DNA of 64,000 bases from an uncultured Anaeroplasmataceae bacterium (GCA_944325035.1 CALUYM010000002.1:7329-71328), one strand, 5' to 3'. Numbered from the stretch's first letter, positions 1 to 64,000 are shown. Notes: generated by a model not told the origin, from the letters alone. Made by a program: numbers and translations.

Positions 1-2301
1 GGAAAGAGTTACGCAGGACTTTTAGTAGGTAGAAAGACGATTAATGGTATTACTGTAGACCAAATTACTGTAAAAGCTAATAGCTCAACAAGTGGAAACT
101 ATGGTGGAGGATTAGTAGGTGATGCACGTGATATGAATAAAGGGGATGTATCATTTACAAATCTAGATATTGATTTAAATATGAACGTAGTAAATAATAC
201 TGGTGGATTACTTATTGGTAGAAGCGATGGGTCTAAAATGGGGAAGACAATCGTTAGAAATGTTAGAATTAATGCCAATATTACAGGGCAATCTACTAAA
301 GCAGGGTGCTTATTTGACGGGGCAAGTAAGATAGAGGATTATTTATGTGAAAATGTATTGTTAAGCGCTAATTGTAGTGACGGTATAACAAGTGATTTTT
401 ATACAGGTCAAAAATATGGACCAACATCAGCTAATAACATTTGGTTTATTGAAGATAAAACTAACGCAACTAATACATCAGGTGTACCACAAGCTATTCA
501 ATCTAAAGATTTAAATGCTGAGTGGTATTATAATGTTCTAGGTTTAGATAAAGATATTTGGGTGACTGAATCAAATGGTACAGTTAAATTAAAAGGAGCT
601 TCGTCAAATGTAATAGTAGAAGCTGCAGAACTTTTAAAAATTGAAGTATTTGAATCTCGTGCTAAAACATATTATTATTTTGAAGAAGCATTTACAAGTG
701 AAAACCTTGTAGTCCTTGGAACATATAAGAATCCAGATGGCAATATTTTACAAGCAAACTTATCAACTGTAGAAGTTGCAAATCTTGGTTCGTATAAAAT
801 TGATGATTCAGAATTTAACAATAAGAAAGCCGGTACATATACAATTAATGTAATTGCTTCTAAAAAGTTTATAACAGATGAAAATCCAGATGATGAAATA
901 TATGGATGGATTGCTAATGGTTCATATTCTGTTACTGTAAATATGATTGAAAAACTAAGTGTTTATGATCAAGAAGCAAATCGTATCTTCCTAAAAGGCG
1001 AATCATTTGATGATACTGGATTAGTTGTTAAAGCTATCTTCTCAAATAACTCAGATAGCACTGATGATAATGTAGAATCAACAATGCATAATAGTGAAGA
1101 AAAAACATTCTATAATTTAGATACATCTCAATTTAAATCGGATACTGTAGGTTCATATACAATTAAAGTATCTGCAACTGAGAATGGTACAGCATTTAGT
1201 AATGAATATGTAGTTGAAGTAGTGGACGCAATTGATGTAACTGGTTTAACTGAAGTAAGTGTCACAGTTGATGCTAATGCCCAAAGTACAACTATTGACA
1301 CAGAAAATAAAACTGCAACATTCAACTCTATTAGCAAAGCTTTAGACTATTTAGAGTCATTAAAACTTGCTGATAGTGTTGCTAAGATTATTAATCTAAA
1401 AAATGGTAAATATGAAGAAAAGATAACTGTTTCTATTCCTAATGTATCATTTGTAGGAGAAAGTCAAGATGGCGTTATTATCGCGTATGGCGCTGCTGCA
1501 GGTCATAAATACTTAGATGAATCAAAAGGTAATTATGGTACAGATAAATCGGCTACTGTACTAGTAGAAGCTGATTTATTTACTGCTAAAAACGTAACAT
1601 TTGTTAACTCATTTGATTATAACAATGACAATTCAGTATCAGATAAACAAGCTTTAGCAATTGGAGTTTATGCTGATCAAGCTGTATTCTACAATTGTTC
1701 ATTTAAGGGATATCAAGATACTCTTCAAACCAAAGAAGGACGTTCTTATTTCTATGAATGTTATATTGAAGGTAATGTAGACTTTATATTTGGTGTTGAT
1801 TGTACAACTTATTTCAATAAGTGCGAAATCAAATCTTTAAATAGAGAAAGTTCATCAAATGGAGGATATATTGTAGCTCCTAAGACAGAGGAAAAATACA
1901 CTTATGGTTTCTATTTCAATGAGTGTAATTTTACAGCAGAAACAGGTGTAGTAGATGGTACTGTTTCAATTGCTCGTCCATGGGGAGCTAAAGGTACATG
2001 TGTAGTAATGAATTCGACATTAGGAAAGCATATTTCAAAATTAGGCTATAAAGATGGTAATACTAATAAGATAAATTCTCGTTATGAAGATATGAGTGGA
2101 AACTTACCTGTAAATGCTAATTTTAAAGAATACAATAACACAGGTGATGCGGCTATTACTGAAGCTGTAGAAGGTTGTACAATGCTTACTAAAGAAGAGG
2201 CAGATGCTCTTATTGTTCTTACTAATTTATATAAAGCAGATGCGTCTTTAGAATTTGAAGCATGGGATGCTCAAGCTGTATTAGATAAATTAATGAAATA
2301 G
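1..2301 (+). CDS. Large surface/secreted protein, 5'-truncated by the window edge: GLUG-like beta-helix repeats, two Ig-like repeats and a C-terminal pectinesterase (CE8) domain
   Basis: Frame 1 is open from nt 1 with no stop before the ATG at 133, so the gene starts upstream. Pectin methylesterase signatures are present: QALAI, GYQDTLQ, GNVDFIFG, ARPWG. The N-terminal part has GGLVG/GGLLIG repeats. Two roughly 90-aa repeats begin LLKIEVFES and IEKLSVYDQE. Confidence 0.8.
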   Translation, partial: GKSYAGLLVGRKTINGITVDQITVKANSSTSGNYGGGLVGDARDMNKGDVSFTNLDIDLNMNVVNNTGGLLIGRSDGSKMGKTIVRNVRINANITGQSTKAGCLFDGASKIEDYLCENVLLSANCSDGITSDFYTGQKYGPTSANNIWFIEDKTNATNTSGVPQAIQSKDLNAEWYYNVLGLDKDIWVTESNGTVKLKGASSNVIVEAAELLKIEVFESRAKTYYYFEEAFTSENLVVLGTYKNPDGNILQANLSTVEVANLGSYKIDDSEFNNKKAGTYTINVIASKKFITDENPDDEIYGWIANGSYSVTVNMIEKLSVYDQEANRIFLKGESFDDTGLVVKAIFSNNSDSTDDNVESTMHNSEEKTFYNLDTSQFKSDTVGSYTIKVSATENGTAFSNEYVVEVVDAIDVTGLTEVSVTVDANAQSTTIDTENKTATFNSISKALDYLESLKLADSVAKIINLKNGKYEEKITVSIPNVSFVGESQDGVIIAYGAAAGHKYLDESKGNYGTDKSATVLVEADLFTAKNVTFVNSFDYNNDNSVSDKQALAIGVYADQAVFYNCSFKGYQDTLQTKEGRSYFYECYIEGNVDFIFGVDCTTYFNKCEIKSLNRESSSNGGYIVAPKTEEKYTYGFYFNECNFTAETGVVDGTVSIARPWGAKGTCVVMNSTLGKHISKLGYKDGNTNKINSRYEDMSGNLPVNANFKEYNNTGDAAITEAVEGCTMLTKEEADALIVLTNLYKADASLEFEAWDAQAVLDKLMK

Positions 2302-58572: not shown

Positions 58573-58688
58573 TAAAATACTGATTAATAGCGAAAAATTT
58601 CGTACTATATTAATCAGTTTTTATATGCTATAATTAAGTGTAATATTTAAGTTTTAATCAAAACTTAATTTAGAAAATGAGGTCTAAT

Positions 58689-60041
58689 ATGCAAACAGAT
58701 TTAAGAGAAAATGATGAAATAATTGTCGATATCAAACGCTTAGGAATAAATGGAGAAGGTATCGCTTTTTATAAAAAATTAGCTATTTTTGTAGAAGGAG
58801 CACTACCAGGTGAAGGTGTTAATGTCAAAATTACCAAAATTTTGAAAAATATGGCTTTTGCAGAAGTTATAGATTTTAAACATATATCAAAAGATAGAGT
58901 AGAACCTAAATGTGGTTATTATGAAAAATGTGGTGCATGCCAAGTAATGCACGTTAACTATAATAAAATGCTTGAATATAAACGTGAATTAGTAATCGAA
59001 TCTATTGCACGCTATACAAAATTAAATCCAAGAAGTTTTGAAATTCATAAGACTATTGGAATGGATAATCCTTATGGATATCGCTTTAAATCAAGTCTTC
59101 CTTTAAGACATAATGAAAAAACGAGTGTTGGTATAATTAAAGCTAATACAAATATTGTAGTACCAATTGATTTTTGTTTAAATCAAAATGATATAATCAA
59201 TAATATTAATAAAGAAGTATGTAAATTGATTGATAAGTTTGGGATTGAGGTATATGACCATAAAGAGAATAAAGGGTTAATTCGTTATATTGTAGTACGT
59301 GTTTCTCACTATAATAAGGAAGCTCAAGTTACTTTGGTTGTATCAAAGAAGGGATTTAATTTAAAACCAATTGCGAAAGAAATAATGAAGATTTCTCATG
59401 TCGTTGGTGTATTTGAATCTTACAATGATGGAGAAGGAGTATCTATTTTTGGTACTACTAAAAAGTTAGATGGAAAAGATACTATTACAGAGACAATTGG
59501 TTCATATAAATTTGAGTTAGGTCCAGATACGTTCTTCCAATTAAATCCAATTCAAACTGAAAAGTTATATGAAGTTGTAAAAAAAGCAACGAAGTTATCG
59601 ATGAAAGAAACTGTACTAGATTTATATTGTGGTGTTGGAACAATAGGTATTTATTTATCGAAATTTGCTAAAGAGATTATTGGTATAGAAACCAATGAGA
59701 TTTCAATTGAAAATGCAAAAACTAATGCAGTTATTAATAAAGTAAGAAATGCTAGTTTCTATGCAGGTAGTGTTGATGATATTCTTCCTAAAGTTTTACG
59801 TGAAAAACAAGTTGATGTTTTAGTTTGTGATCCACCTCGAACAGGATTAGGTGAATATGTGGCTAAAACAATTGTTAAAAGTCAAGCCAAGCAAGTTGTA
59901 TATGTTTCATGTAATCCTGCTACATTAGCTAAGGATTTAGCTATCCTTAGTGAAAAATATCATGTTAAATGGATTCAACCTGTTGATATGTTCCCTAATA
60001 CTAGTCATGTTGAGTGTGTGTGCTCGCTATCTCTAAAATAG
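58689..60041 (+). CDS. rlmD: 23S rRNA (uracil-C5)-methyltransferase RlmD/RumA family (TRAM, Fe-S cysteines and SAM MTase domains)
   Basis: TRAM domain at the N-terminus, a Cys cluster CGYYEKCGACQ, FFQLNP, LDLYCGVGTIG, DPPRTG and SCNPATLAKD. Confidence 0.85.
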   Translation: MQTDLRENDEIIVDIKRLGINGEGIAFYKKLAIFVEGALPGEGVNVKITKILKNMAFAEVIDFKHISKDRVEPKCGYYEKCGACQVMHVNYNKMLEYKRELVIESIARYTKLNPRSFEIHKTIGMDNPYGYRFKSSLPLRHNEKTSVGIIKANTNIVVPIDFCLNQNDIINNINKEVCKLIDKFGIEVYDHKENKGLIRYIVVRVSHYNKEAQVTLVVSKKGFNLKPIAKEIMKISHVVGVFESYNDGEGVSIFGTTKKLDGKDTITETIGSYKFELGPDTFFQLNPIQTEKLYEVVKKATKLSMKETVLDLYCGVGTIGIYLSKFAKEIIGIETNEISIENAKTNAVINKVRNASFYAGSVDDILPKVLREKQVDVLVCDPPRTGLGEYVAKTIVKSQAKQVVYVSCNPATLAKDLAILSEKYHVKWIQPVDMFPNTSHVECVCSLSLK

Positions 60042-60155
60042 GCTAAAAATAGTAAAAAATAGGACAAAAAAGAGGAATTTACTGTATCTGATATTTGGCA
60101 TAGTGATTATGCTAGAGAAAATGTTATTGCTATTTTTTCTAAGCCTGATCCAGAG

Positions 60156-61004
60156 TTGAAAGCAGTCAATGAATATGATAAATATTTTGGTCAACCAATA
60201 AAACTGTTGGGATATAGTAAAATTCTGAATGTAAGAAAAGAGAAAAATAGGTATTATTATTCAATAAACAATAGAGAATTATTGGATAAAATTGCTTTAA
60301 GGCCGATGAATGCATTGAATTTCCTATATGAATATATTTGTAAAGTACTGTCTGATAGTGATTTGATGAATGACTTTACTAACTTTTTTAGTGTGCAGAA
60401 TAAAGAGGCATATAAAGATGTCAGAGATAGATTTATTCAATTTACTATTAATAATACCAATATAAATGGTGAAACCGAATGTGGAAGGATATTTACTAAA
60501 GTGATAAATCCTCTGGCTTTCAAATTAAGAAAACTAGGAACTGAAAAAGGAAGAATATCTAAAAATATAATCACTTTGAATGATTTACAATATAATCGTT
60601 CAAACTGGAGAGACGAACTTAGTGGTAAGGATAAGTCTGTAATAAGAACGGAACATGAACTTACAAATGCTCAATTGCAGGCAAAGGCATTAGCAACATA
60701 TACAGTAAATAAAGCGAAAAAAGCGATTCGCAAATTCAATGATTTGATGTTTGAAAGTAAATCTGAAGTATATCAAGCAACTGAAACTGTAAAAGCAACA
60801 CAAGCTCATCATATTTTTGCACAATCAGATTATCCTGATATTTCTGATTATGTAGAAAACTTGATTATGTTAACGCCAAATCAACATTTTACCATGGCAC
60901 ATCCTAATAATAATACTCAGTACATAGATAAGGATTTTCAGTATATCTGTTTAATTGCTAAGTCAACAAAGATTTATTCCAATTTAACGTCTGTTACTGA
61001 ATAA
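60156..61004 (+). pseudogene. HNH-motif nuclease gene, probably decayed (5'-truncated, premature TAA)
   Basis: HNH-like motif QAHHIF...ENLIMLTPNQHFTMAH. The frame is open from 60063 with no start codon before a weak TTG at 60156 and no RBS. After the TAA at 61002-61004 the same frame stays open for about 61 more codons, to about 61187. Confidence 0.45.
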
Positions 61005-61208
61005 AAATTTTATGATTTTGACGATTATAAATATGTACTTAATACAGGGCTAGAAACCGATGAGTTTTCTTATGTTGATTATCTAGATTTTGCTACTATA
61101 GTAGATAAAATTGACTATTTCTATGGAAATGAATTTGAAAATAATAAATATAATCATTTAATACAAGGGAATAGACTTGTAATATAAATACAAAGCGAGG
61201 AAGCAATT

Positions 61209-62126
61209 ATGAAACTAAATCAAAATTCAAAAAATGCAATTAAACAATTTAAACATCTATCGCATTTTGTTATATCAGATAATCAAGATGATGGTTTTTT
61301 AGATTTATTTTTACTTCCAATAAATGCAAGAAATTTTAATTATAATTATGTTTCTGATAATTTAATAGAATCTGTCGCAGATTATTCTTTATCTTGGAGA
61401 ATTAGGGAAAAATATAAAGATAAAGCGATGATGCTCAGTAAAAAAGCTAGAGAAAAATTTAAAGAATGTGAGAGAAATGATGGTGAGCTTGGAGAATTAT
61501 TATTGTTTTGTTTTTTAGAAGGACATCTTGAAGCACCTAAAATTTTAACAAAATTGGAATTAAAAACTTCAAACAAATTATATGTTAATGGTTCGGACGG
61601 TGTTCATTTGAAAAAAATCGGTGATAAAAAATATCATTTGATTTTTGGTGAATCAAAGACATATGAGGAACTAACAAAAGCTTTTGAAAATGCATTTAAA
61701 TCTATAAATGAATTTGTGAAAGAGATAAATTCAAAAGGAGAATCTAAAAGTGGAATAGAATTTGAGAGAGGATTAATTTCCACTAATATGGAACAAATCA
61801 TTTTCGATGAAGATGATGAGGATATATTAAATTTATTATTATACCCTGAAAATAGACATTCTTCTGACATAACGCTCGATGATGCTTTTTCTATTTTTGT
61901 TGGATACGAAATTGATATTACAAAGGAACAAAAAGAACTATCTAGTGATGAATTTCCTAATAAAATAGAAAAGAAAGTTATTTTTCAAATTGAAAACTAT
62001 AAAACTAAAATTTATGAATTAATAGAAAAATACGAATTGATTGGTTATACATTTTATATTTTTGTAATGCCATTTACTGAAATTGCAAAAAACAGGAAAA
62101 AGATTTTAGAGAGGGTGCTAGAGTGA
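61209..62126 (+). CDS. hamA: PD-(D/E)xK-like nuclease candidate, HamA (DUF1837)-like partner of the downstream helicase
   Basis: 305-aa ORF with an ATG after GAGGAAG. Motifs ELGELLLFCFLE and GSDGVHL...LIFGESKTY (D130, E148, K150). Its stop overlaps the helicase start (GTGATG). Confidence 0.55.
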   Translation: MKLNQNSKNAIKQFKHLSHFVISDNQDDGFLDLFLLPINARNFNYNYVSDNLIESVADYSLSWRIREKYKDKAMMLSKKAREKFKECERNDGELGELLLFCFLEGHLEAPKILTKLELKTSNKLYVNGSDGVHLKKIGDKKYHLIFGESKTYEELTKAFENAFKSINEFVKEINSKGESKSGIEFERGLISTNMEQIIFDEDDEDILNLLLYPENRHSSDITLDDAFSIFVGYEIDITKEQKELSSDEFPNKIEKKVIFQIENYKTKIYELIEKYELIGYTFYIFVMPFTEIAKNRKKILERVLE

Positions 62127-64000
62127 TGTCGATTATACAAAAAATGTCAAAAAAAGCGTTTGAAGATGTTTATCTAAAAGATTTGTTATATAAATTAGAA
62201 GAAAATTATTGTAATAGATTATGTTATGATGATTTTCAACTCACAATTAATAATAAAGAAATAAATCATTTATTAAGGTTCTCAGATATTTTGTGTAGAT
62301 CTGAATATAGTAAACACAGAAATCTCTCATTAAAAATTATAAGTTTATTGCAAGAAATAAACGAGATAAGAAATATGGAATATTTTCAAATTATTGCAAC
62401 AAATGTTTTGGTTAAATTAGGGAATTTTCCATCAATGCCAATAATAATAGATAGCGAACAATATTTAAAAATAGATGAAATTAGAAATGATTATATCATT
62501 AAAATTTTAGCTCAAAGCTCACCATTAGAAAAGCCTTTTACAGATGCTCAATATAGCGTTTTTGAAGAAATGAAGAGGAGAAATCATTATAGCTTTTCTG
62601 GAAGTACATCATTTGGAAAATCTTTTATTTTTGAAGCTTTTACTAAATATATTATTGAAGCGCATAATAAAACGGACAATATAGCATTCATCGTTCCAAC
62701 TAAGGCACTTATTAACCAAGTTGGACAAAGATTGAAAGAAATAACAAGAGACTTTGGATACAAAGTAATAACAACCCCTATAATACCTAAAGTTTTCTTA
62801 AATCAAGATAATAGGTATGTATTTGTTTTTACGCCAGAAAGATTGATTTCGTACTTTATGGATGGCAATAATCCACAAATTGATTATCTAATGGTGGACG
62901 AGGCACATAAATTATTAAGCAAAAAAGACACTAGAACACCATTGCTTTACCATTCGTTAGTATTGGCGAAAAGAAAAAGTGTTAATATCTATTTTGCATC
63001 ACCCAATATCCCAAATGCAGATGTTTTTTTGAAAATGATTAATAATAGCACTGAAGAAAGTAAATCTGTTATAGAATCGCCAGTAGCTCAAAATAGATTT
63101 TTTATCGATACTGTTAATGATAAATCTTTTATGATTTCAGAGTTTGGAAAAGATATTATTTTCTCCAAATTCAATTTTAGTGATGACAAAATAGAAAATT
63201 TAAAAAAAGTATTAGAAACTTTTTCTAAGAATAGACAGAGTATAATATATTGCAATACTGTGGATAAGACCATACAAACTGCAATTAGATTTTCTAATAG
63301 AATAAATGATGTAGACTTACTACAAATTAATGAACTTATGGAATTGATAGATGAGAAAGTTCATAGCCAATATTTTCTAAAAAAATGTTTAAAAAAAGGA
63401 ATTGCATATCATTTTGGTGGAATACCAGAAGAAATAAAATTAAGAATAGAAAATTTGTATAAACAGGGGCAAATTAAATATTTATTCTGTACTTCGACTT
63501 TATTGGAGGGAGTAAATCTACCAGCTAAAAATATTTTTATTTTGAGTGAAAATATAGGTAACGGAAAGATGACAGATATAGATTTTTGGAATTTAGCAGG
63601 TAGAGCAGGAAGATTGAGTAAAGATATATCCGGAAATATCTTTTGTGTAAATTTATTTGATCAAAGGGGATATTGGAAAGATACGAAAGATGGAGTTAAA
63701 ATACTTCGAAACAAACAAATAAAAGAAGTTGAACCGCAAATATTATCTAATAGAAATGATAATTTATATAAAAATATTAGTAACTATATAGAAGGGAAAG
63801 ACTATACAAATAAAAGTTTAAGTAGTGAACAAAAAAAGATAATTGAAATGTATGGAAATGTATTGCTTTTTCATGATTCAATTAATAATGATTCAATTCT
63901 AAAAGACAAATTTATAGATAATAATACTGACTCCATTTCTTTATTAAAGAAAACAAGAACATCATTAAAAGTTCCGTCAGAAATACTAGCTACTAGTATT
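62126..64000 (+). CDS. hamB: SF2 DEAH-box helicase, 3'-truncated by the window edge (HamB-like)
   Basis: Frame 2 is open for 625 codons from ATG 62126 to the window end; the ORF track misses it because there is no stop. Motifs: I GSTSFGKS, Ia PTKALINQ, TPERL, II MVDEAH, V TSTLLEGVNLPA, VI AGRAGR. Confidence 0.7.
   Translation, partial: MSIIQKMSKKAFEDVYLKDLLYKLEENYCNRLCYDDFQLTINNKEINHLLRFSDILCRSEYSKHRNLSLKIISLLQEINEIRNMEYFQIIATNVLVKLGNFPSMPIIIDSEQYLKIDEIRNDYIIKILAQSSPLEKPFTDAQYSVFEEMKRRNHYSFSGSTSFGKSFIFEAFTKYIIEAHNKTDNIAFIVPTKALINQVGQRLKEITRDFGYKVITTPIIPKVFLNQDNRYVFVFTPERLISYFMDGNNPQIDYLMVDEAHKLLSKKDTRTPLLYHSLVLAKRKSVNIYFASPNIPNADVFLKMINNSTEESKSVIESPVAQNRFFIDTVNDKSFMISEFGKDIIFSKFNFSDDKIENLKKVLETFSKNRQSIIYCNTVDKTIQTAIRFSNRINDVDLLQINELMELIDEKVHSQYFLKKCLKKGIAYHFGGIPEEIKLRIENLYKQGQIKYLFCTSTLLEGVNLPAKNIFILSENIGNGKMTDIDFWNLAGRAGRLSKDISGNIFCVNLFDQRGYWKDTKDGVKILRNKQIKEVEPQILSNRNDNLYKNISNYIEGKDYTNKSLSSEQKKIIEMYGNVLLFHDSINNDSILKDKFIDNNTDSISLLKKTRTSLKVPSEILATSI

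What the first reader, a model, noticed from the sequence alone, without database searches (positions are those of the whole stretch)
61209..64000. Translationally coupled PD-(D/E)xK-like protein plus SF2 DEAH helicase: Hachiman-type defence candidate running off the window
Seen in the sequence: the supplied ORF track lacks a 625-codon open frame (62126-64000, no stop before the window end). Its ATG shares one base with the TGA of the upstream 305-aa ORF (GTGATG). The long ORF has a full SF2 helicase motif set (GSTSFGKS, PTKALINQ, MVDEAH, TSTLLEGVNLPA, AGRAGR). The upstream ORF has a D...E-x-K arrangement (GSDGVHL / LIFGESK) and an ELGELLLF helix. Established knowledge: Hachiman systems are defined as a DUF1837 protein (HamA, a PD-(D/E)xK nuclease) encoded next to an SF2 helicase (HamB). 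Inference: this pair is a Hachiman-like anti-phage module. The family assignment of the small protein is from memory of motif style, not from an alignment, so it could be a divergent or different nuclease-helicase system. Its context also marks it as accessory: it directly abuts a core rRNA methyltransferase gene and follows a decayed HNH nuclease gene.
Basis: partly seen in the sequence, partly recalled or inferred. Interest (0 to 1): 0.75.

Follow-up and report, generated by a model that had tools for sequence, protein, structure and literature searches.

The report
Ordinary Hachiman anti-phage gene pair
This is a standard two-gene Hachiman anti-phage system (HamA nuclease plus HamB helicase) beside the remains of a restriction enzyme gene in an uncultured low-GC bacterium; it is real and looks intact, but it is a well-known kind of system that routine defence-finding software would flag.

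Summary

- **HamA:** ORF 61209-62126 (305 aa) matches Pfam PF08878 at 1.7e-51 and PADLOC HamA1 at 7.7e-108, end to end. Its predicted fold matches the two solved HamA structures.
- **Catalytic residues:** E93, E96, D130, E148 and K150 are invariant in 46 homologues. They line up, by motif and spacing, with residues shown by mutagenesis to be essential in other HamA proteins.
- **HamB:** the open frame 62126-64000 is the first 625 of 864 codons (PADLOC HamB1, 4e-231). All SF2 motifs are present, and its ATG shares one base with the hamA stop codon.
- **Selection:** both genes are under strong purifying selection (dN/dS about 0.07-0.19).
- **Accessory status:** a distant relative of the host lacks the pair at this site. 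The closest sampled relative carries an unrelated Hachiman there, in the opposite orientation.

The "decayed HNH nuclease" is a type II restriction enzyme pseudogene. It was cut at codon 49 by a deletion across an 11-nt microhomology with the rlmD terminator, and it also carries a nonsense mutation. Intact versions of the block (C5 methyltransferase, restriction enzyme, HamA, HamB) occur in several bacterial phyla.

Verdict: a canonical type I(-A) Hachiman system, already known, of low interest.

The parts
58677..60041 (+). rlmD (23S rRNA U1939 C5-methyltransferase). Core flanking gene, not part of the defence module; it marks the left side of the insertion site.
   Evidence: NCBIfam TIGR00479 rumA/RlmD 1.2e-120, full length. 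Pfam TRAM plus tRNA_U5-meth_tr. Syntenic with the CDF transporter and rlmD in relatives L017 and L018.
60042..60080 (+). Left arm only of the rlmD intrinsic terminator, ending in the deletion junction. The 11-nt microhomology AAGAGGAATTT lies at 60070-60080.
   Evidence: The window matches relative L017 up to 60080; L017 has the complete hairpin AAAAAAGAGGAATT/TTGGTGTG/AATTCCTCTTTTTTTT at -19 kcal/mol. The window matches the intact restriction gene of L012 from 60070 onwards. The overlap between the two matches is AAGAGGAATTT. No terminator is left between rlmD and hamA.
60069..61187 (+). Pseudogene of a 420-aa type II restriction endonuclease. It lacks codons 1-48 and has an in-frame nonsense mutation (GAA to TAA) at 61002-61004. 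Its cognate methyltransferase is absent from the window.
   Evidence: PADLOC REase_II PDLC03488 at 2.6e-123, covering only profile positions 83-358 of 430. The intact 420-aa gene in L012 covers 7-417 of 430. The nucleotide alignment to L012 shows the 5' cut and the stop. tblastn with the L012 proteins finds residues 49-420 of the enzyme at 98% identity and no methyltransferase in the window.
61197..61202 (+). Shine-Dalgarno-like GAGGAA, 6 nt upstream of the hamA ATG.
   Evidence: Read directly from the sequence.
61209..62126 (+). hamA: 305-aa DUF1837 / PD-(D/E)xK nuclease, the effector. Active-site candidates are E93, E96, D130, E148 and K150.
   Evidence: Pfam PF08878 1.7e-51. PADLOC HamA1 PDLC00156 7.7e-108, residues 3-304 against profile 3-297 of 298. 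The listed residues are invariant in 46 homologues. AlphaFold pLDDT 88.7. Foldseek hits 8zue_A (E 1.1e-5) and 8vx9_A (E 7.9e-4), both probability 1.00. dN/dS 0.08-0.19.
62109..62115 (+). Shine-Dalgarno-like GAGAGGG inside the 3' end of hamA, 10 nt upstream of the hamB ATG.
   Evidence: Read directly from the sequence.
62126..64000 (+). hamB: first 625 of 864 codons of the Ski2/Hel308-like SF2 helicase, the sensor/ATPase. The ATG overlaps the hamA TGA by one base. The gene runs off the window.
   Evidence: PADLOC HamB1 PDLC00176 4e-231, profile 1-620 of 845. Protein P0001 (864 aa) is 100% identical over all 625 residues and covers profile 1-842 of 845 at 5e-300. P0001 shares a longest-contig length of 277,587 bp with the window's RlmD, TypA and SufB. 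PDB best hit is 9wh1_B, 1.5e-72. Motif positions. dN/dS 0.07-0.15.

Best explanation
The pair is a canonical type I Hachiman anti-phage system, subtype I-A in the scheme of Cui et al. 2025: a stand-alone DUF1837 HamA with an intact catalytic motif. The two genes are translationally coupled, so the proteins are made together.

The mechanism is inferred from characterised homologues; nothing was tested here. HamA (a PD-(D/E)xK nuclease) and HamB (a Ski2/Hel308-like ATPase/helicase) should form a heterodimer. HamA has no activity alone. HamB keeps it controlled while the complex surveys intact dsDNA. Free 3' ssDNA ends or other damage produced during infection enter the helicase and trigger ATP binding and hydrolysis. 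That switches on HamA, which degrades phage and host DNA indiscriminately and aborts the infection.

In this genome the pair is the surviving 3' half of a horizontally acquired block (C5 DNA methyltransferase, type II restriction enzyme, HamA, HamB) inserted downstream of rlmD. A microhomology-mediated deletion removed the 3' arm of the rlmD terminator, the first 48 codons of the restriction gene and, by inference, the methyltransferase. Transcription of hamAB now probably depends on read-through from rlmD or on a weak promoter inside the pseudogene.
For: Shown here:
- HamA family membership by profile and by fold.
- HamB membership over its full length, with its closest solved relative being a HamB chain (9wh1_B, 1.5e-72).
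- Same strand, one-base stop/start overlap. The overlap is also seen in L001, L004, L005, L007, L010, L012, L013, L034 and L036; L006 and L008 have a 4-nt overlap.
- E93, E96, D130, E148 and K150 are invariant in 46 homologues. The helicase motifs, including I (GKS) and II (DEAH), are present.
- Purifying selection on both genes.
- Accessory, horizontally moved status. The same pair at 74-78% amino-acid identity occurs in Eubacterium brachy, Streptococcus massiliensis, and MAGs labelled Veillonella, Faecalitalea, Streptobacillus and Saccharimonas; a Gemella MAG has it at 66%. It is absent from the rlmD locus of L018 and replaced by a 30%-identical, inverted Hachiman in L017.
- Deletion junction and pseudogene.

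From the literature:
- E138A/K140A in HamA or D431A in HamB abolish defence in E. coli ECOR31, where 3' ssDNA and ATP activate the complex (PMC12278908).
- Type I-A HamAB from E. coli DEC14B degrades DNA only as a complex, and E150A/K152A kill its activity (PMC11914072).
- In S. thermophilus HamA, D90, E93, D127, E147 and K149 are all essential (PMC13064477). By motif and spacing, not by an alignment, these correspond to E93, E96, D130, E148 and K150 here.
Against: - No experiment or expression data exist for this locus.
- The native upstream operon, and whatever promoter it had, is deleted. Promoter-like hexamers in 59800-62300 are no more frequent than in shuffled sequence (16 found against 18.1 +/- 4.2 expected).
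- The last 239 codons of hamB lie outside the window. They are inferred from P0001, which shares a longest-contig length with the window's genes.
- The HamB AlphaFold model is poor (pLDDT 61). Its Foldseek hits do not separate HamB from Hel308 or Pol theta helicases, so the HamB assignment rests on sequence profiles and on the HamA partner.
- Published mechanisms disagree on whether HamA is released from HamB (PMC12278908) or cuts while in the complex (PMC11914072, PMC13064477). Which applies to this clade is unknown.
Confidence: 0.9

Rival explanations
1. Silent relic. The genes are a genuine Hachiman pair and still intact, but the deletion that destroyed the upstream restriction-modification operon also removed their promoter. 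They would then be expressed poorly or not at all in this host and be on the way to decay.
For: The 5' part of the block is gone and the restriction gene is a pseudogene. No promoter signal rises above background. The deletion looks recent: the window differs from L012 by only about 1.3% over 60070-64000, and the pseudogene still shows dN/dS 0.18. Relatives in L002, L005, L008 and L009 show split hamA or hamB reading frames, so decay of this clade may occur, although assembly errors are not excluded.
Against: Both reading frames are complete with every catalytic residue. The deletion removed the 3' arm of the rlmD terminator, so read-through from a housekeeping gene is plausible. Good ribosome-binding sites are retained. 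Three independently truncated versions (window, L034/L035, L010) all keep intact hamAB.
Confidence: 0.15
2. Obligate composite. In this clade HamAB works only together with the adjacent type II restriction-modification system, for example by needing restriction-generated DNA ends as its trigger. Loss of that system would then have crippled the defence here.
For: This HamAB clade sits directly downstream of at least five different C5-methyltransferase restriction systems, on the same strand. A native S. thermophilus island of Hachiman plus a type II restriction system protected far better than Hachiman alone expressed from a plasmid (PMC12322248). Free DNA ends activate HamAB (PMC12278908).
Against: HamAB pairs alone protect in several published systems (PMC12278908, PMC11914072, PMC13064477). 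L004, L008 and L009 carry this clade without an upstream type II system. hamAB stays intact and under purifying selection where the restriction gene has decayed. Infection itself produces the DNA ends that trigger HamAB.
Confidence: 0.05
3. Housekeeping DNA-repair helicase (Hel308/RecQ-like) with an associated nuclease, not a defence system.
For: The low-confidence HamB model hits Hel308/Hjm slightly ahead of HamB structures in Foldseek. The helicase core aligns with Ski2/Hel308/Pol theta chains.
Against: Full-length match to HamB profiles at 5e-300. The partner is HamA. Distribution is patchy and horizontal, spanning different phyla. The pair is not conserved at this locus in relatives. It lies in defence-island and mobilisable-element contexts with relaxase, MobC, recombinase and restriction systems.
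Confidence: 0.01
4. A different Hachiman subtype: an AbpAB-like type I-B system (Cap4-HamA fusion with a dead DUF1837 domain) or a type II system (HamA2/HamB2 plus a third gene).
For: The closest solved HamB, 9wh1_B, is partnered with a 528-aa HamA whose DUF1837 lacks the ExK motif: it has HSAA where this protein has GESK.
Against: This HamA is 305 aa, is covered end to end by a HamA1 profile, has no N-terminal extra domain, and keeps D130/E148/K150. HamA2 and HamB2 models score far lower than HamA1 and HamB1 (126.9 against 358.6 bits, and 284.9 against 767.5 bits). In L012, 98.7% identical, the next gene after hamB is a 100-aa ORF on the opposite strand.
Confidence: 0.02

Closest known systems
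Type I-A Hachiman HamAB of E. coli DEC14B (Cui et al. 2025, PMC11914072)
   Same: Same architecture: a stand-alone DUF1837 HamA of about 300 aa with an intact D...ExK motif (E150/K152 there, E148/K150 here), followed by an SF2 HamB. It belongs to the majority class, 86% of the HamA sequences in that study.
   Different: The sequences are distant. A profile of this clade does not reach any E. coli HamA chain in the PDB by sequence. The host here is an uncultured low-GC bacterium rather than E. coli.
E. coli ECOR31 HamAB, PDB 8VX9/8VXA/8VXC/8VXY (Tuck et al. 2024, PMC12278908)
   Same: Same HamA fold (Foldseek probability 1.00, E 7.9e-4, TM 0.46-0.53) and the same D-ExK chemistry. HamB is Ski2-like with an N-terminal helical region ahead of RecA1. 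The DNA-end-sensing, abortive-infection mechanism comes from this system.
   Different: ECOR31 HamB is much larger (1174 aa) and has a C-terminal OB-like domain. It aligns with this HamB only over residues 416-512 by sequence (2.1e-8). Motif II is DEGH there and DEAH here.
HamAB of PDB 9WH1/9WHK/9WHU, and E. coli K-12 AbpAB (PDB 8ZUE)
   Same: 9wh1_B (853 aa) is the closest solved relative of this HamB, aligned over residues 8-604 at 1.5e-72. 9wh1_A and 8zue_A are the closest solved HamA-domain chains, by sequence (6.6e-13) and by fold (E 1.1e-5) respectively.
   Different: Those HamA proteins are about 530 aa and carry an extra N-terminal domain, described as Cap4-like for 8ZUE in PMC11914072. 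Their DUF1837 domain is catalytically dead: 9wh1_A has HSAA in place of GESK. This HamA has the active motif and no extra domain.
S. thermophilus Hachiman systems: type III-B HamAB (PMC13064477) and the native 7.2-kb Hachiman plus type II restriction-modification island of strain DGCC8849 (PMC12322248)
   Same: The mutagenesis-validated HamA motif set (D90, E93, D127, E147, K149) parallels this protein by motif and spacing, not by alignment. A Hachiman plus type II restriction island of about the size of the intact four-gene block seen here (about 7.2 kb) exists and protects strongly.
   Different: The III-B HamB has motif I at K275 against K165 here, so it is a different HamB lineage. Whether the DGCC8849 island is homologous to this block could not be checked, because no sequence was available. 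In the window the restriction half is dead.
Hel308/Hjm and Pol theta helicase domains (housekeeping Ski2-like DNA helicases)
   Same: Shared RecA1/RecA2 core and overall Ski2-like fold.
   Different: They have no HamA partner and no match to the HamB-specific N- and C-terminal regions, and they are vertically inherited repair genes. This gene is accessory and horizontally mobile.

Membership tests
Hachiman type I (HamA + HamB) | A protein with the DUF1837 / HamA domain (Pfam PF08878) | tested here: met
   PF08878 at 1.7e-51, 175.7 bits against a gathering cut-off of 25, profile 4-230 of 230. PADLOC HamA1 PDLC00156 at 7.7e-108, profile 3-297 of 298.
Hachiman type I (HamA + HamB) | An SF2 (Ski2-like) helicase matching HamB models | tested here: met
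   PADLOC HamB1 PDLC00176 at 4e-231 for the 625 residues in the window, and 5.2e-300 over profile 1-842 of 845 for the full-length P0001. Pfam DEAD, ResIII and Helicase_C.
Hachiman type I (HamA + HamB) | hamA and hamB adjacent on the same strand, forming an operon | tested here: met
   One-base stop/start overlap at 62126. The same or a 4-nt overlap is seen in more than 10 related loci.
Hachiman type I-A (catalytically active stand-alone HamA) | Intact D...ExK nuclease motif and no extra N-terminal domain | tested here: met
   D130, E148 and K150, plus E93 and E96, are present and invariant in 46 homologues. The protein is 305 aa and covered end to end by the HamA1 profile. Equivalent residues are essential in three published systems; the correspondence is by motif and spacing, not by alignment.
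Hachiman type I (HamA + HamB) | HamA adopts the PD-(D/E)xK-like fold of solved HamA structures | tested here: met
   AlphaFold model with pLDDT 88.7 and pTM 0.90. The only PDB hits with E below 1e-3 are HamA chains 8zue_A (1.1e-5) and 8vx9_A (7.9e-4), both probability 1.00. TM scores are only 0.46-0.53, so peripheral elements differ.
Hachiman type I (HamA + HamB) | HamB ATPase/helicase motifs intact (Q, I, Ia, II, III, V, VI) | tested here: met
   FTDAQ 138, GSTSFGKS 159, PTKALINQ 191, VDEAH 257, FASPNI 290, CTSTLLEGVNLPA 455, NLAGRAGR 489. These positions are invariant in 40 homologues.
Hachiman type I (HamA + HamB) | Complete hamB gene | tested here: inconclusive
   The window ends at codon 625. 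P0001 (864 aa) is 100% identical over those 625 residues. Its longest contig (277,587 bp) has the same length as that of the window's RlmD, TypA and SufB. The 3' DNA itself could not be fetched.
Hachiman type I (HamA + HamB) | HamA-HamB heterodimer with ATP/DNA-end-triggered DNase activity, and protection against phage | not testable with these tools
   Needs biochemistry and plaque assays. No complex-prediction tool was available.
Hachiman type I-B / AbpAB | HamA with an N-terminal Cap4-type nuclease domain and an inactive DUF1837 | tested here: not met
   There is no N-terminal extension and the active motif is present. By contrast 9wh1_A has HSAA at the ExK position.
Hachiman type II (HamA2/HamB2/HamC) | Best match to HamA2/HamB2 models and a third gene | tested here: not met
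   HamA2 best score 126.9 bits against 358.6 for HamA1; HamB2 284.9 against 767.5 for HamB1. In the 98.7%-identical L012 there is no co-oriented gene directly after hamB. The window itself ends before this can be seen.
Housekeeping Hel308/RecQ-type repair helicase | Conserved at the same locus in related genomes, with no dedicated nuclease partner | tested here: not met
   L018 (RlmD 72% identical) has the same left flank but no Hachiman. L017 (RlmD 85% identical) has a 30%-identical Hachiman in inverted orientation. A HamA partner is present.
Type II restriction-modification system (the upstream remnant) | Full-length restriction enzyme plus its cognate methyltransferase | tested here: not met
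   The restriction gene lacks codons 1-48 and has a TAA at 61002-61004. No homologue of the 836-aa methyltransferase occurs anywhere in the 64-kb window. The intact pair is present in L012, L036, L002, L003, L005 and L007.

The most novel reading that the evidence does not exclude
This HamAB clade may be the constant 3' module of a swappable cassette made of a C5-methyltransferase restriction-modification system followed by Hachiman, and the two halves may be functionally coupled. Restriction cuts, or Vsr nicks at deaminated m5C sites, in incoming DNA would supply the free ends that load HamB. Hachiman would then act as a second-line amplifier for restriction.

At least five unrelated restriction systems sit in the same position directly 5' of near-identical hamAB genes, across several phyla. 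The window would be a case where the amplifier outlived its first-line partner. The evidence here is only gene adjacency, which ordinary defence-island clustering and co-mobilisation also explain.
Probability: 0.15. Interest if true: 0.45.

Novelty: already known. Interest (0 to 1): 0.15.

Why it matters
The finding adds little. It places one more canonical Hachiman in an uncultured, poorly sampled low-GC lineage; the nearest named RlmD relatives are Acholeplasmatales, Anaeroplasmataceae and Erysipelotrichaceae MAGs at 51-58% identity.

The modest points of value are contextual.
- It gives a base-pair-resolved example of how a defence island erodes: a microhomology deletion fuses a housekeeping terminator arm to a restriction gene, and the restriction enzyme and methyltransferase are lost while hamAB survives.
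- The site downstream of rlmD has taken up two unrelated Hachiman systems in sister lineages.
- One HamAB clade recurs next to different C5-methyltransferase restriction systems. This is a testable hint of restriction-Hachiman cooperation, for which S. thermophilus already offers an experimental precedent.

Tried and rejected
- **Extending the contig past the window.** Exact-protein look-ups of the window's HamA and RlmD, of P0001 and of P0269 found nothing on record. The 3' end of hamB and the right edge of the island therefore remain unseen.
- **First genome scan.** Single-protein patterns found no relative. The second scan, with an alignment, worked.
- **Reaching E. coli HamA structures by sequence.** A 46-sequence profile still hit only 9wh1_A. 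The link to 8zue_A and 8vx9_A needed the fold search.
- **HamB structure.** The AlphaFold model built from a shallow alignment (71-89% identity) was poor (pLDDT 61, pTM 0.42). Its Foldseek hits (TM 0.22-0.29) show only membership of the Ski2/Hel308 class and cannot separate HamB from Hel308. I give it no weight for family assignment.
- **HNH nature of the upstream nuclease.** There is no Pfam hit for either the fragment or the intact 420-aa protein and no PDB relative. Only the AHH...N...H motif style supports it, so I call it a type II restriction enzyme on the PADLOC match and leave HNH open.
- **Plasmid or phage origin.** There is no DNA similarity in PLSDB or INPHARED. IMG/VR holds only 27-34%-identical HamB relatives.
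- **Naming the host.** Cluster look-ups returned no names, and Rfam found no rRNA or tRNA in the window.
- **Promoter.** The consensus scan shows no enrichment over shuffled sequence, so no promoter is claimed.
- **Alternative genetic code (TGA = Trp), which would read through the hamA stop.** Rejected because the large conserved genes in the window (TypA, pyruvate:ferredoxin oxidoreductase, SufB, RlmD) are full length under code 11.


Full report
**1. The observation**

ORF 61209-62126 encodes 305 aa. The frame starting at 62126 is open for 625 codons to the last base of the window. The ORF lister omits ORFs that run off the source, which explains why it was missing from the track. The hamA stop TGA (62124-62126) and the next ATG (62126-62128) share one base.

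In the long frame they are FTDAQ 138, GSTSFGKS 159, PTKALINQ 191, VDEAH 257, FASPNI 290, CTSTLLEGVNLPA 455 and NLAGRAGR 489. In the short one they are GELGELLLF 92, GSDGVH 128 and GESK 147. At about 27% GC roughly 8.5% of random codons are stops, so a 625-codon open frame has a chance probability near 1e-24 (my arithmetic).

**2. What the two proteins are**

The 305-aa protein matches Pfam HamA (PF08878, formerly DUF1837) at 1.7e-51, 175.7 bits against a cut-off of 25. It matches PADLOC model HamA1 PDLC00156 at 7.7e-108 over essentially its whole length.

An alignment of 46 homologues (51-95% identity) shows E93, E96, D130, E148 and K150 invariant. An AlphaFold model from that alignment is confident (pLDDT 88.7, pTM 0.90). 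It has a helix at 93-106 followed by strands 111-114, 131-138 and 141-151, which carry D130 and E148-x-K150. That is the arrangement expected of a PD-(D/E)xK core. A Foldseek search of the PDB returns only two hits below E = 1e-3, both HamA chains: 8zue_A at 1.1e-5 and 8vx9_A at 7.9e-4, each with probability 1.00. A type II restriction enzyme, EcoO109I, follows at low probability.

The 625-residue frame matches PADLOC HamB1 PDLC00176 at 4e-231, covering profile positions 1-620 of 845. Protein P0001 (864 aa) is 100% identical over all 625 residues. Its longest contig (277,587 bp) has the same length as that of the window's RlmD, TypA and SufB. P0001 covers the HamB1 profile 1-842 of 845 at 5e-300. 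The closest solved structure is a HamB chain, 9wh1_B (1.5e-72, residues 8-604).

**3. Selection and distribution**

I compared the window with loci carrying the same clade. These are stretches fetched from other genomes and metagenomes, labelled L001 onwards. Against L013, L001, L006, L007, L004, L010 and L003, dN/dS is 0.08-0.19 for hamA. For hamB it is 0.07-0.15 in the comparisons where synonymous sites are not saturated.

The clade occurs at 74-78% amino-acid identity in Eubacterium brachy, Streptococcus massiliensis, and MAGs labelled Clostridiales, Veillonella, Faecalitalea, Streptobacillus, Saccharimonas and "proteobacterium". A Gemella MAG has it at 66% and Citroniella at 60%. Such a spread across phyla means horizontal transfer. 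HamA relatives number 893 cluster representatives at E <= 1e-3 in a 1.84-billion-protein library.

**4. The host and the locus**

The window has 26-34% GC throughout. It encodes ordinary chromosomal genes read with code 11: TypA, pyruvate:ferredoxin oxidoreductase, SufB, acetate kinase, a CDF transporter and RlmD. The nearest named RlmD relatives are Acholeplasmatales, Anaeroplasmataceae and Erysipelotrichaceae MAGs at only 51-58% identity, so the host is an undersampled low-GC lineage.

Two related contigs share the left flank (CDF transporter, then rlmD).
- L018 (RlmD 72% identical) has unrelated small genes and an RNase III-like gene downstream, and no Hachiman.
- L017 (RlmD 85% identical) has a different Hachiman downstream, in the opposite orientation. 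Its HamB is 30% and its HamA fragment 31% identical to those of the window.

The pair is therefore accessory. The site after rlmD has taken up Hachiman systems at least twice.

**5. The upstream "decayed nuclease" and the island edge**

ORF 60156-61004 matches a PADLOC type II restriction enzyme model (PDLC03488, 2.6e-123), but only over profile positions 83-358 of 430. A metagenomic contig, L012, is 98.7% identical to window 60070-64000. It carries the intact block: a fused double C5 methyltransferase (836 aa, PF00145, PADLOC MTase_II), a 420-aa restriction enzyme, HamA and HamB.

The nucleotide alignment shows that the window lacks the first 48 codons of the restriction gene. It also has GAA changed to TAA at 61002-61004; otherwise the frame runs to 61187. 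No methyltransferase homologue exists in the window.

The junction is resolved to the base.
- Up to 60080 the window follows L017. In L017 the sequence AAAAAAGAGGAATT-TTGGTGTG-AATTCCTCTTTTTTTT is the rlmD intrinsic terminator (-19 kcal/mol).
- From 60070 the window follows the restriction gene of L012.
- The 11 nt shared by both, AAGAGGAATTT at 60070-60080, is the crossover.

A microhomology-mediated deletion therefore fused the left arm of the terminator to codon 49 of the restriction gene. No terminator remains between rlmD and hamA.

The same restriction gene has been truncated independently elsewhere. In L034/L035 it is cut at codon 139 and carries a frameshift, now behind a LlaJI-type system. 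In L010 only fragments remain. In both cases hamAB stays intact.

Whether the enzyme is an HNH nuclease is unproven. There is no Pfam or PDB match for the fragment or for the intact protein.

**6. Mechanism (inferred from characterised homologues)**

- In E. coli ECOR31, HamAB is a heterodimer. HamB restrains HamA while the complex scans intact dsDNA. A 3' ssDNA end entering the helicase triggers ATP hydrolysis and a movement of the N-terminal helical domain that holds HamA. The activated system clears both phage and host DNA, giving abortive infection. HamA E138A/K140A or HamB D431A abolish defence (PMC12278908).
- In the type I-A system of E. coli DEC14B, HamA alone is inactive. The complex degrades any DNA to fragments of about 100 nt, and E150A/K152A abolish both nuclease activity and defence (PMC11914072).
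- In S. thermophilus, HamA D90, E93, D127, E147 and K149 are all essential. The complex cuts with loose CNNNG preference, stimulated by ATP binding (PMC13064477).

By motif and spacing (G-[DE]-x-x-E, then D, then E-x-K), the window's HamA carries the equivalents E93, E96, D130, E148 and K150. I did not make a residue-by-residue alignment to those proteins. Its HamB has motif I (K165) and motif II (D258-E-A-H). I therefore expect the same logic: coupled synthesis, a heterodimer, activation by DNA ends and ATP, then non-specific DNA degradation. Whether HamA is released or cuts within the complex is unsettled in the literature and untested here.

**7. Comparison and membership**

All sequence-testable defining features of type I (I-A) Hachiman are met, as listed in the membership table.
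- It is not the AbpAB / type I-B form: there is no N-terminal domain and the active site is intact. The closest solved HamB (9wh1_B), however, belongs to such a system, whose HamA has HSAA in place of GESK.
- It is not type II: HamA2 and HamB2 models score far lower.
- It is not a housekeeping Hel308. The poor HamB model (pLDDT 61) cannot separate these by fold, but the full-length profile, the HamA partner and the distribution do.

**8. Context seen along the way**

This HamAB clade lies immediately 3' of at least five different C5-methyltransferase restriction systems:
- the 836-aa methyltransferase plus 420-aa enzyme (L012, L036, L002, L003, L005, L007);
- a methyltransferase, a PDLC03563 enzyme and Vsr (L001);
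- a methyltransferase, a PDLC03553 enzyme and Vsr (L006);
- a LlaJI-type set with two methyltransferases (L013-L016);
- a LlaJI-type set with one methyltransferase and Vsr (L034).

These often sit near relaxase, MobC or recombinase genes. A native 7.2-kb island of Hachiman plus a type II restriction system in S. thermophilus protects far better than plasmid-borne Hachiman alone (PMC12322248). That is a precedent, although I could not check whether it is homologous to this block. Functional coupling, with restriction-made ends feeding HamB, is possible, but co-mobilisation is an equally good explanation.

**9. Verdict**

The system is a canonical, already-known Hachiman type I(-A) that standard tools would annotate. 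Interest is low (0.15). The remaining uncertainty concerns expression after loss of the upstream operon, and of course actual phage protection.

Noticed in passing
L017:3061-5867 (minus strand), downstream of its rlmD at 1350-2723: The closest sampled relative of the host (RlmD 85% identical) carries a different Hachiman at the same site after rlmD, in inverted orientation. Its HamB is 30% and its HamA fragment 31% identical to those of the window. The rlmD 3' flank appears to be a recurrent landing site for Hachiman systems.
   Followed up: partly
L012:5274-12595; L036:3010-10328; L001:6300-12598; L006:5707-12577; L013:3237-12589; L034:2709-12595: One HamAB clade (74-99% identical HamB) lies directly 3' of at least five unrelated type II or LlaJI-type restriction systems with C5 methyltransferases, always on the same strand. 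Several are next to relaxase or MobC genes. This may be a modular cassette or a functional partnership; only adjacency was established.
   Followed up: partly
L034:8215-9059, L035:78-922, L010:8719-9046: The 420-aa restriction gene upstream of hamA has decayed independently at least three times: in the window, in L034/L035 (cut at codon 139 plus a frameshift) and in L010 (two small fragments). hamAB remains intact each time. All three remnants keep at least 146 nt upstream of hamA, equivalent to window 61063-61208. That stretch contains the promoter-like TTGATT-N16-TATAGT at 61075-61102 (9 of 12 matches), which might be a hamAB promoter.
   Followed up: no
L002:9083-10001, L005:10001-12597, L008:9992-12566, L009:9087-11579: hamA or hamB of the same clade is split into two or three reading frames in a Streptococcus massiliensis scaffold, a 'proteobacterium' MAG, Citroniella saccharovorans and Streptobacillus notomytis. 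These are either pseudogenes or assembly errors.
   Followed up: no
PDB 9wh1_A aligned to window HamA residues 29-301: The solved HamA-domain protein closest in sequence to this HamA has HSAA where this protein has GESK, so its DUF1837 domain is catalytically dead. Its partner 9wh1_B is nevertheless the closest solved relative of this HamB. HamB lineages seem to switch between active stand-alone and inactive fused HamA partners.
   Followed up: partly
L012:14202-17300: In the 98.7%-identical island, a type III restriction enzyme (PADLOC REase_III PDLC03647) is split into two adjacent ORFs covering profile 1-416 and 423-985. Further uncharacterised genes follow, then rpsL-rpsG-fusA. That island sits in a different chromosomal site from the one in the window.
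   Followed up: no
window 1-64000: No Rfam family (tRNA, rRNA, riboswitch, leader) reaches its gathering threshold anywhere in the 64 kb. This is somewhat unusual for that length of bacterial chromosome.
   Followed up: no
window 133-2301: A 722-aa protein has a pectinesterase-like domain (PemA model 1.3e-40, far below the model's cut-off). This hints that the host degrades plant polysaccharide.
   Followed up: no
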